DNA of 64,000 nt from an uncultured Planctomycetia bacterium (lineage in GTDB: Bacteria > Planctomycetota > MHYJ01 > CAYXQY01), in NCBI GenBank assembly GCA_964580675.1, contig CAZOLI010000009.1, positions 7,008 through 71,007 on the forward strand, written 5' to 3'. Positions 3,351 to 21,132 of the stretch are shown piece by piece. A program made the position numbers and the translations under genes. Under the pieces are notes generated by a model. That model was not told where the DNA came from, searched no databases, and saw only the letters and a program-made list of their open reading frames with translations. Each line of letters starts with the position of its first letter. Position 1 is the stretch's first letter.

Positions 3351-4370
3351 TTATTGCGGGTCCTGGAGGTCGTATTGCTGCTGGTAATAATCTTCAAACT
3401 CCCCCTGTTTTAAGGGTTTCCACCACTCCTCCCTCTCCTTATACCATTTTACGGTACGTTCAAGACCCGAGTCAAAGGAAACGTCGGGGGACCAGCCGAT
3501 TTCCTCCCGCAACTTTGTGCAATCAAGCGAATAACGGGCATCGTGACCGGGACGGTCCTCGACGAATTCAATCAGTGATTGTGGCTTCTCAAGGACATCC
3601 AGTATGCCTCGAGCAACCTCGATGTTCTTCTTTTCACAATCGGCCCCGATGTTATAAACGGATCCGGGGCTTCCGTTCTCGATAATTTGTCGGAGCGCCC
3701 TGCAATGATCACGGACGAAGAGCCAGTCCCGTACGTTCGAACCGTCTCCGTACAGGGGAAGAGATTCGTCGTTCAGCGCTCCGGTTATAAAAAGGGGAAT
3801 GAATTTTTCCGGGTACTGGTAGGGTCCGTAATTATTTGTGCTCCGGGTGGTGATTACCGGAAAATCGTAGGTCTCCTGATAGGCATTTACGAGCATATCC
3901 GCCCCGGCCTTGGACGCTGCATAGGGGTTGGAGGGATTTAACCGATCCTCCTCCGAGAAGGAAACCCCCTCCGGCGCACTGCCATATACCTCGTCGGTGG
4001 AGACGTGAACAAACAGGGACACCTCATATTCACGGGCCTTCTGAAGCAGGAGCTGCGTCCCGTATACATTTGTTACGACAAACGGACGTTCATCGTTCAA
4101 ACTCCGATCCACGTGGGACTCGGCGGCGAAGTGAACAACCACGTCCGGATTCGCTGTCAGCGCCGAGGACACAGCTTCCTCGTCGGTGATGGAGCCGTGT
4201 ATAAACTCGTACCGCCCGTGGTCCTCCAGGTCCGATAAATTTTCCCGGTTGCCTGCGTAGGTGAGGGCATCCAGATTTGTGACCCGGGCATCCTGATCTT
4301 CCTCAATCAGGTGGCGGATAAAATTCGTGCCGATAAATCCACAGCCACCTGTAACGAGGTAACGTGTCAT
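3351..4370 (-). CDS. rfbB: dTDP-glucose 4,6-dehydratase
   Basis: TGGCGFIG, DALTYAGN, HFAAESHVDRS, STDEVYG, YAASK, NNYGPYQYPEKFIP, RPGHDARY. Confidence 0.95.
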   Translation of the reverse strand: MTRYLVTGGCGFIGTNFIRHLIEEDQDARVTNLDALTYAGNRENLSDLEDHGRYEFIHGSITDEEAVSSALTANPDVVVHFAAESHVDRSLNDERPFVVTNVYGTQLLLQKAREYEVSLFVHVSTDEVYGSAPEGVSFSEEDRLNPSNPYAASKAGADMLVNAYQETYDFPVITTRSTNNYGPYQYPEKFIPLFITGALNDESLPLYGDGSNVRDWLFVRDHCRALRQIIENGSPGSVYNIGADCEKKNIEVARGILDVLEKPQSLIEFVEDRPGHDARYSLDCTKLREEIGWSPDVSFDSGLERTVKWYKEREEWWKPLKQGEFEDYYQQQYDLQDPQ

Positions 4371-5743: not shown

Positions 5744-5989
5744 GCTCTTCGTTTTTCTAACGAAAAAACAAAAATTTTCCGATGCAGACAAACCCCGGCA
5801 TCCCGCGAATTACACGGCATTTACTGGTTGAATAACGTCCGGGTATGATATACAGCAACCAATTTTAACAGTAAGGCCGGTATGGTTCAATGCAAATCCG
5901 GATCCGCCGGTTCACGTGGTGAACCGACCCCAGCGCTGTGTGAGAGGAATCCCCCGCTCCTTGCCCGTCTCACGTTCTTTCCGGTCATT

Positions 5990-7150
5990 TTTATTGGAGC
6001 GGTGTGAAGAATCATCTTTGCCCTCGTGATCCGTTCCGACCTTTTTTGCAAAGGCAGATGTTTTCGTTCCAGTTGGAACGGTTTTCCCTACACACTGGGG
6101 GCGGAAGCATCCATGCTTTCGCATGTTTTATTTTTCAGGAATCACGGCCTCCCTTCCACAGGCAATCTCAACCGGGCCTTCATGCATTCTCTTTATCTTT
6201 ATCCTTATCCTTATCTTTATCTTAAAAACGCCCCCTCCGTCACCGTCGGGGCTCCGGCTTTGGTGAAAAAGTCTGCTATCAAAATCTCTTTCGTTCCCTA
6301 TCACCCGGACTCCGCTCCCCTGCTCAACCCCTTACTCCTGACTCCTTACTCGTAACGTATGCTCGCCTCTTTATCTTTTTCCTTATCTTAATATTTTAGA
6401 AATACCCCTCGTGACTTATTTTTCCTTCCCCCCGGCTGAACGGTTCTACATTTGATCCCTTACTCCTGATTCCTTACTCGTAACGTATGCTCGCCTCTTT
6501 ATCTTTATCTTTATCCTTATCTTTATCTACGGTCCTGCGGACCGTCCCATTCCCCTCCCTGATAAAAGATGGCGTGCCGTTTAGGCACTCCCTGCTTCCA
6601 TCGGATTCCGTCCGGTTGGTGCTCCTGCTTTGGTGATAAATGGCCCGCTCCGTGACCGTCGGTGCTCTGGCTTTGGTGATAAATGGTCCGTTCCGTGACC
6701 GTCAGTGCTCCTGCTTTGGTGAAATGGTTTTTCTTCAATCGCCTATCGCCCGCCGTTTTCACGCCCAACGCACCACGCATCACGCATAACGCTACTAACG
6801 CCAATAACGCAACTAACGCCACAAACGCCACGAACGCAATAATCCTTATCTTTATCAACGGACCTGCGGACCGTCCCACTGGGGGCGGAAGGGTCCTCGC
6901 TTTCGCATTTATTTGATAAATCATCCACCCTGGCTGGACATCCCTCGATCGCCAAACCGGGTCTGTCTATGTTCTCTTGATCTTGATCTTTATCTTGATC
7001 TTAATCTACGGTTCGAAGAACCGTCCCACGGTCGGGGCTCCGGCTCTGTTGAAATGGTTTTCCTTCAATCGGCTATCGCCCGCTGTTTTCACTCATCAAC
7101 CCATCAACGCAACACGCATCAACCCATCACCCCATACTCAACTCATCATC
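5990..7150. repeat. Composite non-coding repeat mosaic, locus 1
   Basis: YTTATC runs at 6192, 6370, 6498, 6844 and ~6976. A 50-bp direct repeat at 6329-6378/6457-6506. The GTCGGKGCTCYGGCTTTGGTGA-like module at 6241, 6617, 6656, 6697 and 7028. AACGCNNNN x6 at 6788-6841 and CATCAACC-like 8-mers at 7094-7150. Confidence 0.9.
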
Positions 7151-18628: not shown

Positions 18629-18711
18629 CGGATGCCTCAAACCCCGTAAGGGGACGATATCCTGACGACACAAAATGAACCGGACGGGAAAACGCGTCGC
18701 CAGGAGATCCG
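18629..18711 (+). promoter_or_regulatory. Candidate cis-regulatory RNA, c-di-GMP-I (GEMM)-like three-way junction
   Basis: P1 CGGAT/ATCCG; P2 TC-AAA-CCCC-GTAA-GGGG-AC-GA; P3 TCCTGACGAC/GTCGCCAGGA. About 110 nt upstream of the VOC gene. Confidence 0.3.
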
Positions 18712-18819
18712 CAGGCTCCGGCAGCGGGCTCGCTCAGAATCTTCGGCCATCGGGCAACACATTTTCCGGACAATCTTTCACGTGGATATGGTACTCTTGA
18801 AGCAGGAGGTAGGAAACAA

Positions 18820-19182
18820 ATGATTACGGACATCAACACGGTGTTGCTGCACGTTCAGGACCTTCGTCAGATGAGACGGTTTTATCGAGATGTGCTTGGA
18901 TTAAACATCGTGGATGACGGAAGCGAACTCGTGAACCTGAAATGTGGGGATGTCTTAATCGCTCTGGAAAAGGTCGAAGAAGAAATTCCCGAATCTCCCA
19001 TGGGGAAACAGACGTCTCTCATTCTGAACGTTACAAAATTTGACCGCCTCGTTCGAGTCCTTCGGGAAGCCGAAATTCCCATACGACGGGGACCGGTGTT
19101 AAACCGGGAGGCCGGAGTTCAGTGGTTAACCATTGAGGATCCGGAAGGACATGAACTCATACTGCAGGAACACATGAGTTAA
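18820..19182 (+). CDS. VOC/glyoxalase-superfamily protein
   Basis: VLLHVQDLRQMRRFYRDVLGL...IEDPEGHELILQE; strong AGGAGG SD. Confidence 0.88.
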   Translation: MITDINTVLLHVQDLRQMRRFYRDVLGLNIVDDGSELVNLKCGDVLIALEKVEEEIPESPMGKQTSLILNVTKFDRLVRVLREAEIPIRRGPVLNREAGVQWLTIEDPEGHELILQEHMS

Positions 19183-19191
19183 ATCGCACCT

Positions 19192-19212
19192 AAAAGGGGG
19201 GGGTCCTTTTTT
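19192..19212 (+). terminator. Possible bidirectional intrinsic terminator
   Basis: AAAAGG-GGGGGGT-CCTTTTTT just after the VOC stop; weak stem. Confidence 0.3.
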
Positions 19213-19289
19213 CTATGAAGAGACGCGAACGTGGTTCCCCTTCCCCTTGCTACCACTCTCACCTTTGCCCAGAAGAAGCTATTTTGGCG

Positions 19290-19635
19290 GGGTGTAAATC
19301 ATCATCTTTGCCGTCGGGGTCCGTCCCCGACCATATTTGGCAGGGATGCCTTCACCCCAATTCCGTATTGTTCCCTTGTTTCGGAAGAATCCGGGACCCC
19401 GAACATTTCCACCGCGGGTGGACGTATTCTCGCCTCTTTATCTTTATCCTTATCTTTATCTTAATCCACGGTCCTCCGGACCGTCCCGTCCCCCTCCCTC
19501 ACGGTCGGGGCTCTGGCTTTGGGGAAACAACCGTCTATAACAATCTCTTTTGCTCCACAGCACACCAGCCCCCGTGCTCCTCCGCTCCCCTGCTCAACTC
19601 CTCACTCCTTACTCCCCCCTCCTTACTGACCCACT
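19290..19635. repeat. Composite non-coding repeat, locus 2 (homologous to locus 1)
   Basis: 19422-19499 is nearly identical to 6483-6560, 19500-19630 aligns with 6241-6350, and 19291-19350 aligns with 6001-6060. Confidence 0.9.
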
Positions 19636-19644
19636 GTTGAGTCC

Positions 19645-21132
19645 TTACAGACCGCTACGAACAAAATTTAGGGTGTTTTCCTCGTCATCCCGAACGACCC
19701 GGACCGGCCCTTTTCGTTCTTTGTCCACGTTCAAACTCACGTCCCCGATGGTCAGGACGGAGTCCGGAAATACTTTTTTTCGGATAATGATCTCGGGGAC
19801 TTCCTGACTCTCCGTCCGGCTTTTCAATTTTTTCACTCTTCGGCCGAGGCGTTTCGACTTCGATTTCAGCTTCTTCATGTTCCGAACCATATCGAGTATT
19901 TTTTCCACCTTCTCCTCCGGCAGTTCCTTCAGCCGTTCCCGCGTAATTTCCCGCTGACCAATCCTTGTTTCCAAATATTCAATCTTCTCCTGTACTTCCT
20001 CCTGCTCATTCTGAAGATCCTTAATTTCCCTGTAAGCATGCGTGGACACCCCGGTAATTACGATTGTCTCCTTCCCCATTTTCGATCCGATCACACCAAC
20101 CTCCACCGTGTTCAGGGCCACCACTTCGCCGCCCATTAATCGACCGCCGGGGGCCCTCAGGGCATCCATGGTGTTTATTTCGCTATCAATGATCTCCCCA
20201 TTCACCTCCACCTTCCCCGTGGCCGTTACATCACTCTCGTTTATGTACCGTGCGACGACGTTCCCCCCCGCTTCCAGTCTGGCCTTTTTCCTCCCCTTCA
20301 CGCCCCCTTTTGCACGGATGTCTCCCCCTGCCTCGACCTGAGCAGCCTGTACGGTTCCCTCCACCACAACATCTTTCCCGGCTTTCACCTTAAAATTATC
20401 TCCAATTTGACCCTCTACAAACACGGTACCCGAAAAATCCACGTTTCCCACGTCATAATCAATATCCCCCTCCACGCGATAAACGTCCGAAACCTCCAGT
20501 ATACCGTCCTTTTTCTGAACAAGCCCACTCTCCGTCGCTGCATAAGTCCGTGTTTCCTCGTTGTATTCTACGTTTTCCCCCGGCTCAAATGGAAGATCCT
20601 CGTCCCCGAATAATTCTATTTTGTTACCGAATACGTCCACACCCGATTCTCCTTCAGCGTCCGATTTCAATGTTCCGATGGGGTCTCCCCTGGACACGGA
20701 CTGAACGTTCTTTCCGGCCTCCTCACGAAAATCAACCTGATCATTCTCATCCGTCTCGTCCTCATCAGAATTTGAACGAAGATCTTCCGACCACTCCACG
20801 GCTTTTTCCCGTTTCTGCTCCAGTTCCGGCTTCTTTCCTTCCGCTACCTGTATCGGTTTCAGTTCCTCCTGTTCAGAAATCGCCTCCTTGATCTCTTCCT
20901 TTGCGTTATCCCATTGTTCAGGATCCACGTTGACGCCCAATTCCTCCAGAAATCGGTGGACGTCCGTTGTGTCATGGATCAATGTTGAATCACCCGTATT
21001 CTCCTCATCCTCACCCAAACGTTCCGAACCAATCCGGGAAATTTTGACGTATCCCTTTACGGGAGGATCCGACACGAGAAACGAGCATTTAAATGCCCGG
21101 TTTACGAGTTTTCGAGATGCCAATTCTTTCAT
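19645..21132 (-). CDS. FapA (DUF342) family protein
   Basis: VEGDIDYDVGNVDFSGTVFVEGQIGDNFKVKAGKDV beta-helix, C-terminal coiled coil and IIIRKKVFP. Confidence 0.85.
   Translation of the reverse strand: MKELASRKLVNRAFKCSFLVSDPPVKGYVKISRIGSERLGEDEENTGDSTLIHDTTDVHRFLEELGVNVDPEQWDNAKEEIKEAISEQEELKPIQVAEGKKPELEQKREKAVEWSEDLRSNSDEDETDENDQVDFREEAGKNVQSVSRGDPIGTLKSDAEGESGVDVFGNKIELFGDEDLPFEPGENVEYNEETRTYAATESGLVQKKDGILEVSDVYRVEGDIDYDVGNVDFSGTVFVEGQIGDNFKVKAGKDVVVEGTVQAAQVEAGGDIRAKGGVKGRKKARLEAGGNVVARYINESDVTATGKVEVNGEIIDSEINTMDALRAPGGRLMGGEVVALNTVEVGVIGSKMGKETIVITGVSTHAYREIKDLQNEQEEVQEKIEYLETRIGQREITRERLKELPEEKVEKILDMVRNMKKLKSKSKRLGRRVKKLKSRTESQEVPEIIIRKKVFPDSVLTIGDVSLNVDKERKGPVRVVRDDEENTLNFVRSGL

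What the first reader, a model, noticed from the sequence alone, without database searches (positions are those of the whole stretch)
19290..19635. Second, dispersed copy of the composite repeat with modules in a different order
13 kb away, between convergent VOC and FapA genes, the same parts recur in the same orientation. First is a two-tier hairpin (CATCTTTGCC/GGCAGGGATG enclosing GTCGGGG-tccgt-CCCCGAC, perfect here and decayed at 6012-6060). Then come ACGTAT.CTCGCCTC-(YTTATC)n-hairpin-CCCCTCCCT, the GTCGGGGCTC.GGCTTTGG block and the CTCCGCTCCCCTGCTCAAC/CTCCTTACT run. The order differs from locus 1, so this is not a simple duplication. Both loci lie just downstream of a minus-strand gene, which is compatible with transcription from the purine-rich strand.
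Basis: seen in the sequence. Interest (0 to 1): 0.62.

Follow-up and report, generated by a model that had tools for sequence, protein, structure and literature searches.

The report
Ordinary copy of genome-wide mosaic repeat
The stretch between the VOC and FapA genes is a real, non-coding copy of this uncultured bacterium's most abundant dispersed repeat, built from short modules that always follow the same order and direction. It is one of about 60 such islands and shows no sign of being a special element.

Summary
Window 19235-19644 shares the hairpin head, B, the hexamer run, the D hairpin, E, F, S, G and H with locus 1 (5990-7150). All lie in the same orientation, and each non-repetitive module beats dinucleotide shuffles.

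The claim that the order differs does not hold. Locus 2 is collinear with 6177-6352. Across 59 multi-module islands the modules follow one directional cycle (B>C>D>(K)>F>(S>G)>H>B), and locus 2 obeys it at every step.

The family supplies the genome's commonest 16-mers. Its F core has 58 hits here and chance-level counts in 300 other genomes of the phylum. A diverged version exists in the sister genus.

Islands are strand-pure and pyrimidine-rich on one strand. They sit at gene 3' ends (1 of 29 in divergent gaps). About 70-75% are oriented with replication-type GC skew.

Five divergent IS200-like Y1 genes lie near islands, which suggests but does not show single-strand DNA mobilisation. No Rfam family, coding signal, terminal inverted repeats or target duplication was found.

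The scan had already described this family at locus 1 of the same window, and nowhere on other DNA.

The parts
19183..19234 (+). Unique spacer after the VOC stop codon. It holds a weak terminator-like AAAAGG/CCTTTT stem followed by a T run (about 19193-19214).
   Evidence: Read directly from the sequence. It was not picked up by the terminator scan. It has no match to other islands.
19235..19302 (+). Leader of the island head. It is shared with locus 1 (about 5945-6004) and with C58:11700-11765.
   Evidence: Alignment. Head segment z = 11.4 against shuffles.
19303..19348 (+). Module A, the two-tier hairpin. The outer stem is 19303-19312 with 19339-19348 and includes 2 T.G pairs. The inner perfect stem is 19313-19319 with 19325-19331, with loop TCCGT.
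   Evidence: Sequence, RNA fold and alignment to the decayed copies at locus 1, C58 and C90. nhmmer finds only 2 strict copies.
19349..19421 (+). GCCTTCACCCCAATTC followed by a decayed J-like hairpin, then a small CCACC-GCG-GGTGG hairpin (19409-19421).
   Evidence: Aligns to C58 and C90. Not significant against locus 1 (z = -0.9).
19422..19436 (+). Module B, ACGTATTCTCGCCTC.
   Evidence: 22 copies genome-wide. B is followed by C in 21 of 21 cases.
19435..19466 (+). Module C, the (YTTATC)n hexamer run of about 5 units.
   Evidence: 53 runs in the genome. These are the commonest 16-mers of the genome.
19468..19484 (+). Module D, a 7-bp perfect hairpin ACGGTCC-TCC-GGACCGT.
   Evidence: 18 copies. 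C is followed by D 15:1.
19485..19502 (+). Module E, the C-rich tract CCCGTCCCCCTCCCTCAC.
   Evidence: Part of the D and F profiles. D+E z = 11.4.
19503..19529 (+). Module F, GGTCGGGGCTCTGGCTTTGGGGAAACA. This is the family's most abundant unit.
   Evidence: 79 nhmmer copies. Core pattern gives 58 hits in this genome and 2 or fewer in 300 genomes of the phylum.
19530..19579 (+). Module S, a spacer shared with locus 1, C58 and C61. It carries an 11-nt insert that is also present in C61.
   Evidence: Alignment. 4 copies.
19580..19598 (+). Module G, CTCCGCTCCCCTGCTCAAC.
   Evidence: 3 copies by nhmmer. z = 6.2.
19599..19644 (+). Module H, the CTCCTYACT run (19599-19628), plus a short tail that abuts the FapA stop codon (19645-19647, minus strand).
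   Evidence: F is followed by H 20:1 and H by B 13:0 in the family.

Best explanation
Window 19235-19644 is a non-coding island of a lineage-specific, dispersed mosaic repeat family, the commonest repeat family I found in this genome.

**Structure.** It consists of a rare head (leader, two-tier hairpin A, decayed J) followed by one full canonical unit, B-C-D-E-F-S-G-H. The pyrimidine-rich strand is on the window's + strand.

**How it most likely got there (inferred).**
- Island segments are copied at the DNA level into gaps at gene 3' ends, where they do little harm. Here the gap lies between the convergent VOC and FapA genes.
- The most likely agent is trans-acting HUH/Y1 (IS200-like) enzymes acting on single-stranded DNA at the hairpin and motif modules.
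- Recombination or gene conversion between islands then makes each copy a patchwork.
- Slippage changes the number of hexamer, nonamer and F units.

**Why order and direction are fixed.** All islands descend from, or are copied in register with, the same ordered composite.

**Function.** The island probably has no gene-specific function at this locus. It is at most passively transcribed as a 3' untranslated region.

**Shown versus inferred.** Family membership, the module grammar, strand purity, 3'-end placement, lineage restriction and the absence of coding or Rfam signal are shown. The Y1 involvement, the single-strand mechanism and the neutrality are inferred.
For: **A genome-wide family**
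- BLAST with loci 1 and 2 finds 90 places totalling 15.4 kb, and every place is strand-pure.
- Profile census of module copies: F 79, C 53, H 49, L 39, I 28, K 23, B 22, J 20, D 18.
- The family supplies the top 16-mers of the genome.

**Grammar**
- Conditional entropy of the next module is 1.64 bits. Shuffled order gives 2.58 bits, with a minimum of 2.41 in 1000 shuffles.
- Locus 2 follows the canonical step each time and is collinear with locus 1, C58 and C61.

**Lineage restriction**
- DNA matches occur only in the same GTDB family (3 of 3 genomes), apart from one weak, likely chance, hit elsewhere in the class (G036, E 8.6e-4), among 40 relatives.
- The sister genus has a diverged C-D-E-F architecture and its own multi-copy F-like module.
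- The F core is at chance level in 300 genomes of the phylum.

**Placement**
- Of 29 islands with both neighbours called, 10 are convergent and 1 divergent. The background is 17% and 18% (p = 0.019 and 0.024).

**Orientation**
- The pyrimidine-rich strand lies on the C-rich strand of the flanks in 40 of 49 islands using raw skew.
- After removing the coding-strand effect the count is 22:9.
- Using third-codon-position GC skew it is 28:12 and 19:7 (p = 0.017 and 0.029).

**Recent copying**
- There is a 60-nt exact match at 19440-19499.
- Exact shared island segments of 85-284 nt occur between contigs.

**Link to Y1 enzymes**
- The genome has 7 Y1_Tnp hits.
- Five are IS200-like paralogues only 35-44% identical to each other, with the HUH and Tyr motifs intact. 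Each is therefore single-copy, as domesticated Y1 genes are.
- Five of the 7 lie 58-700 nt from a module. For all genes on small contigs the figure is 13-19%.

**Not coding and not a known RNA**
- The 141-aa ORF has no Pfam hit.
- Paralogous copies differ by 26-nt and 11-nt indels.
- No Rfam family matches.
Against: - No empty site or presence/absence polymorphism could be found, so mobility is not demonstrated.
- The island ends are variable. Locus 2 has no terminal inverted repeats or target duplication, so a discrete transposon is not supported.
- The one protein that passes NCBIfam's RAYT cut-off (C135) has its own, different flanking palindromes and no mosaic module on its contig.
- Y1 loci of the sister genus show no modules detectable with this genome's profiles.
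- The Y1-island proximity is confounded, because both features sit on small, repeat-broken contigs.
- The orientation bias is moderate (70-75%) and loses significance when one island per contig is used (15:8, p = 0.21).
- F copies show no dominant master sequence (73 distinct among 79), unlike an actively replicating REPIN population.
- Modest covariation in J and conservation of the architecture across two genera could reflect function rather than selfish spread.
Confidence: 0.55

Rival explanations
1. The islands are cis-acting RNA elements in 3' untranslated regions. When transcribed they might stabilise or terminate the upstream mRNA, as REP and BOX elements can. In the purine-rich sense they might present GGA-in-loop hairpins and Shine-Dalgarno-like runs that bind CsrA or ribosomes. 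In the pyrimidine-rich sense they would give C-rich, G-poor RNA that loads Rho.
For: - 28 of 29 islands have at least one gene's 3' end facing them.
- At locus 2 the island starts 52 nt after the VOC stop and ends directly at the FapA stop.
- J shows some compensatory change: 7 double-change cells, reached by 4 of 500 shuffles.
- F and J fold better on the pyrimidine-rich strand through G.U pairs, in 76 of 79 and 16 of 20 copies.
- Read on the purine strand, the J loop is GCAAGGAUGC, the D loop is GGA and the inner loop of A is ACGGA (read from the sequence).
- A csrA gene is present.
- The pyrimidine strand is 41% C and 14% G over 19422-19644.
Against: - There is no preferred sense relative to the neighbouring genes (29 against 29).
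- Whole-island folding is only weakly better than shuffles and has no consistent strand preference. The mean z is -0.9 for the pyrimidine strand and -1.5 for the purine strand.
- The F stem positions are the most variable part of F.
- The D hairpin is not kept in the sister genus.
- No T-run follows D.
- No Rfam family matches.
- GGA motifs are expected in any purine-rich strand, and the CsrA resemblance was noticed after the fact.
Confidence: 0.17
2. The islands are polar DNA sites for a chromosome-structuring or replication-linked protein, comparable to the IHF and gyrase sites in BIMEs or to polar motifs such as KOPS. The conserved F core (GTCGGGGCTC-N4-GCTTTGGTGA) and the phased hexamers would serve as the binding sites.
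For: - F is conserved as a sequence motif rather than as a stem.
- F occurs in tandem arrays with 43-54 nt periods.
- Islands are strictly one-directional and 70-75% are aligned with replication-type skew.
- The architecture is kept in the sister genus although the sequence has diverged.
Against: - No candidate binding protein was identified.
- The copy number (about 60-100) and the clustering on small contigs look like repeat spread, not even spacing.
- The orientation bias is far weaker than that of true polar motifs.
- Near-identical segments shared between islands argue for recent copying.
Confidence: 0.1
3. The locus as assembled is a chimera. The left half (VOC-A-J'-B-C) and the right half (E-F-S-G-H-FapA) would belong to two different islands that the assembler joined through the shared C-D-E repeat.
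For: - 19440-19499 is a 60-nt exact repeat of another site.
- The two independent Logan contigs from SRR14300226 end at 19458 and begin at 19493.
- No relative has VOC and FapA adjacent, so synteny gives no support for the join.
Against: - The join lies inside a 91.6-kb contig.
- The resulting module order is canonical, and copies with the same B-C-D-E-F order exist elsewhere, for example C90 and C6.
- Logan contigs use k = 31 (from my own knowledge) and break at any repeat, so their break says little.
- Each half remains a genuine island in either case.
Confidence: 0.07
4. The open frame 19215-19640 (+, 141 aa) that spans the island encodes a repetitive protein.
For: An ATG-started ORF covers the whole island. 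The hexamer and nonamer runs preserve the reading frame.
Against: - It has no Pfam hit.
- A pyrimidine-rich strand is poor in stop codons by composition alone.
- Paralogous copies differ by 26-nt and 11-nt indels, and F arrays have a 43-nt period, so no frame is conserved.
- Similar spurious ORFs over another repeat gave a false 'family'.
- Large BOX elements also create such frames (PMC3049150).
Confidence: 0.01

Closest known systems
REP / BIME clusters with Y1 TnpAREP (RAYT) of enterobacteria and pseudomonads (PMC3333891, PMC2817692, PMC3116915)
   Same: - High-copy intergenic repeats built as mosaics of short hairpin units and linker motifs.
- Variable number of units per locus.
- Preference for gene 3' ends.
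- Y1/HUH genes in the same genome lie beside repeats.
- The family is lineage-restricted and diverges together with the lineage.
   Different: - Units do not alternate in orientation. Every island is one-directional and strongly pyrimidine/purine asymmetric.
- The hairpins at locus 2 lack the 5' GTAG + 30-40-nt imperfect palindrome signature.
- Short tandem runs (6-mer, 9-mer) are integral modules.
- The nearby Y1 genes score as IS200-like, not RAYT.
- There is no dominant master sequence.
BOX elements of Streptococcus pneumoniae (boxA-(boxB)n-boxC; PMC3049150)
   Same: - Composite repeat with a fixed module order and a variable number of tandem internal modules.
- Size range from tens to several hundred nt.
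- Large copies create spurious open frames.
- No element-encoded transposase.
   Different: - BOX has defined terminal modules with terminal inverted repeats. Locus 2 has none, and island ends vary.
- There are about 12 module types in a cyclic order, not three.
- The family has a strand composition asymmetry and a replication-type orientation bias.
- It belongs to an unrelated lineage.
IS200/IS605-derived non-autonomous elements, with single-strand transposition coupled to the lagging-strand template (as summarised in PMC3333891)
   Same: - Hairpin-bearing, strand-specific elements without target duplications.
- Orientation biased with respect to replication-type skew.
- IS200-like Y1 genes are present and close to islands.
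   Different: - No conserved left and right subterminal hairpins bound a unit.
- No conserved cleavage tetranucleotide was identified.
- The bias is only 70-75%.
- The Y1 genes are divergent single copies, not multi-copy insertion sequences.

Membership tests
REP/BIME (PMC3333891) | Unit is a 30-40-nt imperfect palindrome with a conserved GTAG 5' to its foot | tested here: not met
   At locus 2, D is a 17-nt perfect palindrome. CCAC or CTAC lies 5' of it on the pyrimidine strand, the opposite polarity to REP. A is a two-tier hairpin without GTAG. F is conserved as a motif with variable stem positions. A different repeat of this genome ('U', not in the window) does show IP-CTAC...GTAG-IP.
REP/BIME (PMC3333891, PMC2817692) | Clustered units lie in alternating (inverse) orientation | tested here: not met
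   All 90 BLAST-defined places are strand-pure. Among the profile-defined islands only one small J cluster on C90 mixes strands.
REP/BIME-RAYT system | A Y1 TnpAREP/RAYT gene is flanked by the same repeats | tested here: inconclusive
   Five of 7 Y1 hits lie 58-700 nt from a module, against a 13-19% background on small contigs. These score as IS200-like (NF033573, 52-83 bits) and fall below the RAYT cut-off. The single true RAYT (C135, 99.7 bits) has other palindromes in its flanks and no mosaic module on its contig.
REPIN (PMC3116915, PMC3337134) | Two inverted REPs separated by a spacer fold into one long hairpin, and the population is dominated by a master sequence | tested here: not met
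   Locus 2 has no such doublet. Of 79 F copies, 73 are distinct and the commonest occurs 3 times.
BOX-type composite repeat (PMC3049150) | Fixed module order with a variable number of tandem internal modules | tested here: met
   The grammar is directional. FF, HH, LL, II and BB repeats occur within islands.
BOX-type composite repeat / MITE | Terminal inverted repeats and target-site duplication at defined ends | tested here: not met
   The repeat scan of 19183-19660 finds no terminal inverted pair and no flanking direct repeat that brackets the island. First and last modules vary between islands.
IS200/IS605-type single-strand elements | Orientation tied to the direction of replication (lagging-strand template) | tested here: inconclusive
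   Raw skew gives 40 of 49. After coding-strand correction it is 22:9 (p = 0.011), and with one island per contig 15:8 (p = 0.21). Third-codon-position GC skew gives 28:12 and 19:7. The genome is not closed, so replichores are unknown.
Any curated RNA family (Rfam 15) | Match at or above the gathering score | tested here: not met
   Only a tRNA is found in the window. The best hits in 19150-19700 are 17-19 bits with E 0.3-0.6.

The most novel reading that the evidence does not exclude
The islands could be ordered arrays laid down by a multi-enzyme single-strand DNA system. Several mutually divergent, single-copy IS200-like Y1 proteins (35-44% identical) would each recognise its own module (D, F, J or K). 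Each would insert that module site-specifically next to the preceding module type. This would give a fixed directional order of modules, one-strand polarity and alignment with replication. It would be a REPtron-like system that builds polar mosaics rather than alternating palindromes.
Probability: 0.12. Interest if true: 0.7.

Novelty: new variant of a known kind. Interest (0 to 1): 0.36.

Why it matters
If the description holds, this uncultured lineage carries a composite intergenic repeat that is neither BIME-like nor BOX-like. Its MutS has its best named matches, only about 50% identical, among Planctomycetota MAGs.

The repeat has about a dozen modules in one cyclic order. It always lies in one direction, is strongly strand-asymmetric, and tends to follow replication-type skew. 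Several divergent single-copy Y1 genes lie nearby.

That would give a natural test case for two questions. One is how ordered mosaics are assembled. The other is whether domesticated HUH enzymes can maintain non-palindromic repeats.

In practice these islands break the assembly. Many of them sit at contig ends. They also create long spurious ORFs, such as the 141-aa frame here and a false seven-member 'family' elsewhere. Annotators of such MAGs should mask them.

For this particular locus the result is sobering. It is an ordinary member of the family with no sign of a locus-specific role.

Tried and rejected
- FapA found no relative in genome contigs or metagenome contigs.
- It found none in the three sister-genus genomes.
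- Its best homologues among 5.8 billion proteins are only 26-32% identical.
- There is no synteny downstream of mutS in the sister genus.
- The test is therefore not possible with public data.

**Reads and RNA-seq**

**Positional conservation of sister-genus repeat loci**
- None was seen.

**Known RNA families**
- None match.

**Whole-island RNA structure**
- It is weak and shows no consistent strand preference.

**Coding**
- Rejected.

**A 'protein family' of seven island neighbours**
- These turned out to be spurious ORFs across another repeat, U.

**TIR/TSD**
- None bracket the island.
- The 12-nt direct repeat TCCTTACTGACC / TCCTTACAGACC at the FapA stop is within chance for this composition.

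**CsrA-sponge and Rho-loading ideas**
- They are noted but untested, and there is no orientation support for them.

**Covariance model**
- None was built. Iterated nhmmer profiles already gave the census, and structure conservation is too weak to add power.

- I reproduced it only as a 70-75% tendency once the coding-strand effect is removed.

Full report
**1. What is there**

The gap between the convergent VOC/glyoxalase gene (18820-19182, +) and the FapA/DUF342 gene (19645-21132, -) is 462 nt long. Exact coordinates are given under 'parts'.

The two-tier hairpin lies at 19303-19348. Its inner stem is perfect, and its outer stem needs two T.G pairs. The whole hairpin forms in the predicted fold of the + strand. 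The copies at locus 1, C58 and C90 are decayed.

Similarity to locus 1 and to C58 begins at about 19235. So the island fills the gap from just after a weak terminator-like stem behind VOC up to the FapA stop codon.

**2. Is it more than chance?**

A repeat scan of the window puts the locus-2 parts in register with locus-1 parts on the same strand. I scored each segment against the whole locus-1 gap using dinucleotide shuffles. None of 300 shuffles reached the observed score for the head, B, D+E, F or G (z from 5.3 to 11.4). The reverse complement scores at background.

**3. It is one of many copies**

BLAST of both loci against the 3.57-Mb, 179-contig assembly finds 90 places totalling 15.4 kb. 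Each place is hit on one strand only, and many sit at contig ends.

Iterated profiles and simple patterns give these copy numbers:

| Module | Copies |
|---|---|
| F | 79 |
| C | 53 |
| H | 49 |
| L | 39 |
| I | 28 |
| K | 23 |
| B | 22 |
| J | 20 |
| D | 18 |
| S | 4 |
| G | 3 |

The census gives 103 places, of which 59 hold two or more modules. An unbiased 16-mer count shows that the commonest words of the genome belong to this family or to one other repeat, U.

**4. The order is the same, not different**

Adjacent-module counts are strongly directional:

| Step | Forward : reverse |
|---|---|
| B>C | 21:0 |
| C>D | 15:1 |
| C>F | 18:0 |
| D>F | 8:1 |
| K>F | 13:7 |
| F>H | 20:1 |
| H>B | 13:0 |
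| L>I | 15:1 |
| J>C | 6:0 |

- Conditional entropy of the next module is 1.64 bits. Order shuffled within islands gives 2.58 bits.
- The modules therefore form a cycle: B-C-(D)-(K)-F(n)-(S-G)-H(n)-B.
- Locus 2 reads A-J'-B-C-D-E-F-S-G-H. Locus 1 reads A-J-C-F-S-G-H-B-B-C-D-K-F-F-F-L-I and onward.
- A single BLAST match joins 19434-19615 to 6189-6345.
- A multiple alignment with C58 and C61 shows collinearity. The differences are the extra B, a 26-nt segment holding the D hairpin, and an 11-nt indel.
- It is still true that locus 2 is not a plain duplicate. Its segments have different closest relatives, at 95-96%, 77-80% and 71-79% identity. That points to recombination between copies or to module-wise copying.

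**5. Distribution**

- With locus 2 as the query, 40 relatives were searched. All three genomes of the sister genus in the same GTDB family give weak matches. Elsewhere in the class there is only one weak, likely chance, hit.
- A sister-genus locus shows the same architecture in diverged form: a hexamer-like run, a TACGGTCC...hairpin, a C-tract, CGTCGGGGCTC, and later (CACGNNNNN)n runs.
- The sister genus also has its own multi-copy F-like module.
- The F core pattern has 58 hits in this genome. The reversed control pattern has none here. In 300 other genomes of the phylum it has 2 or fewer, at control level.
- MutS has its best named matches, at about 50% identity, among Planctomycetota MAGs. 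This is only a weak indication of the organism's identity.

**6. Context and polarity**

- I masked the islands before calling ORFs. Of the 29 islands with both neighbours called, 18 are tandem, 10 convergent and 1 divergent. The background is 65%, 17% and 18%.
- Islands therefore sit at gene 3' ends and avoid divergent promoter gaps.
- The sense is not fixed. Genes read into the pyrimidine-rich sense 29 times and into the purine-rich sense 29 times.
- The pyrimidine-rich strand lies on the C-rich strand of the flanks in 40 of 49 islands. Part of this is a coding-strand effect.
- After separating that effect the count is 22:9 (p = 0.011), or 15:8 with one island per contig.
- With third-codon-position GC skew it is 28:12 and 19:7.
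I reproduce that only as a 70-75% tendency.

**7. Structure**

- D is a perfect 7-bp palindrome.
- J and F fold better on the pyrimidine strand, through G.T/G.U pairs, in 16 of 20 and 76 of 79 copies.
- The outer stem of A at locus 2 behaves the same way.
- In F, however, the predicted stem positions are the most variable. The conserved parts are GTCGGGGCTC and GCTTTGGTGA.
- J shows modest covariation: 7 double changes, reached by 4 of 500 shuffles.
- Whole islands fold only slightly better than shuffles, with no consistent strand preference.
- At locus 2 the z-score is -2.6 for the + strand and -1.4 for the - strand.
- No Rfam family matches.
- The promoter scan found no sigma-70-type site in 18700-20000.
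- The terminator scan gave two weak hits, no more than shuffles give. One of them overlaps module B.

**8. Mechanism**

The genome has seven Y1_Tnp matches.
- Five are IS200-like proteins with intact HUH and Tyr motifs. They are only 35-44% identical to each other. They are therefore divergent single copies, not a multi-copy insertion sequence.
- One, on C135, passes the RAYT model. It has its own flanking palindromes and a cas1 neighbour.
- Five of the seven lie 58-700 nt from a mosaic module. The figure for genes on small contigs is 13-19%.

Exact shared segments of 60-284 nt between islands indicate recent copying, or else assembly redundancy.

REP/BIME systems are the closest precedent, so I took their defining features from PMC3333891 and PMC2817692.
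- Those features are a GTAG-headed 30-40-nt imperfect palindrome, alternating orientation, and a TnpAREP gene always flanked by the repeats. Single-strand transposition there is coupled to the lagging-strand template.
- The first two features fail here. The third is inconclusive.

BOX elements (PMC3049150) share the fixed order with variable tandem modules. They have terminal inverted repeats, which locus 2 lacks.

My best reading is a new variant of the small interspersed composite repeats. It would be spread at the DNA level, probably with Y1 help, and reshaped by recombination and slippage. At this locus it is passive.

**9. Caveats**

- No empty site, strain variant or RNA data could be obtained.
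- The two halves of locus 2 are each confirmed by an independent Logan contig. Those contigs end at 19458 and start at 19493.
- They flank a 60-nt exact repeat, so the join rests on the MAG assembly alone.
- The MAG is 84% complete and fragmented. Copy numbers are therefore lower bounds, and replichores are unknown.

Noticed in passing
L013 (G000:C150) 338-554; also C90:1333-1642 and 4061-4219; not on the window's contig: A second, more abundant repeat, 'U', with a consensus of about 146 nt. It has two imperfect palindromes in inverted orientation, arranged as IP-CTAC ... GTAG-IP, and the whole unit folds into one long hairpin (-64.5 kcal/mol). This makes it a REPIN-like doublet carrying the REP signature. 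It occurs at 87 places on 46 contigs. 41 of its 137 hits lie within 400 nt of a mosaic module, most often just 5' of it. It also lies near the Y1 genes on C90 and C150.
   Followed up: partly
L015 (G000:C135) 269-1036 and 1275-2333: The only protein that passes the RAYT model (NF047646, 99.7 bits) lies directly upstream of a cas1 gene (PF01867, E 6e-91). Three copies of GGGAGCGCCGGTGCCCTCACCGGCG flank it.
   Followed up: no
L010 1309-1353 (-), which is G000:C90:2980-3024; also C144:1308-1352: Rfam Acido-Lenti-1 (RF01687) matches at 39.2 bits (cut-off 37) 46 nt downstream of an IS200-like Y1 gene. Weaker matches lie near two other Y1 genes.
   Followed up: partly
window 19440-19499: This 60-nt stretch is repeated exactly elsewhere in the genome. 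Logan contigs of SRR14300226 end at 19458 and begin at 19493, so the VOC-FapA adjacency depends on the MAG assembler.
   Followed up: partly
window 19620-19653: A direct repeat, TCCTTACTGACC / TCCTTACAGACC (11 of 12 positions), straddles the island's right edge. The second copy contains the FapA stop codon. This is probably chance in such pyrimidine-rich sequence.
   Followed up: partly
window 19645-21132 (-): The FapA/DUF342 protein has no close relative among 5.8 billion proteins (best 26-32% identity) and none in the sister genus. The lineage is poorly sampled.
   Followed up: partly
G000 contigs C165/C172 704-1428; C17:62390-62925 / C25:43792-44327; C12:3704-4158 / 5926-6380: These are exact duplicates of 455-725 nt that are unrelated to the mosaic family. 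They may be redundant contigs, or other mobile or duplicated DNA in the MAG.
   Followed up: no
window 19314-19322 / 19394-19402 and 19325-19332 / 19503-19510: The arms of the inner A hairpin can pair in two other ways. One pairs with GGACCCCGA in the J-like segment (9 nt, perfect). The other pairs with the GGTCGGGG core of F (8 nt, perfect). Both follow from the recurring GTCGGGG motif.
   Followed up: no
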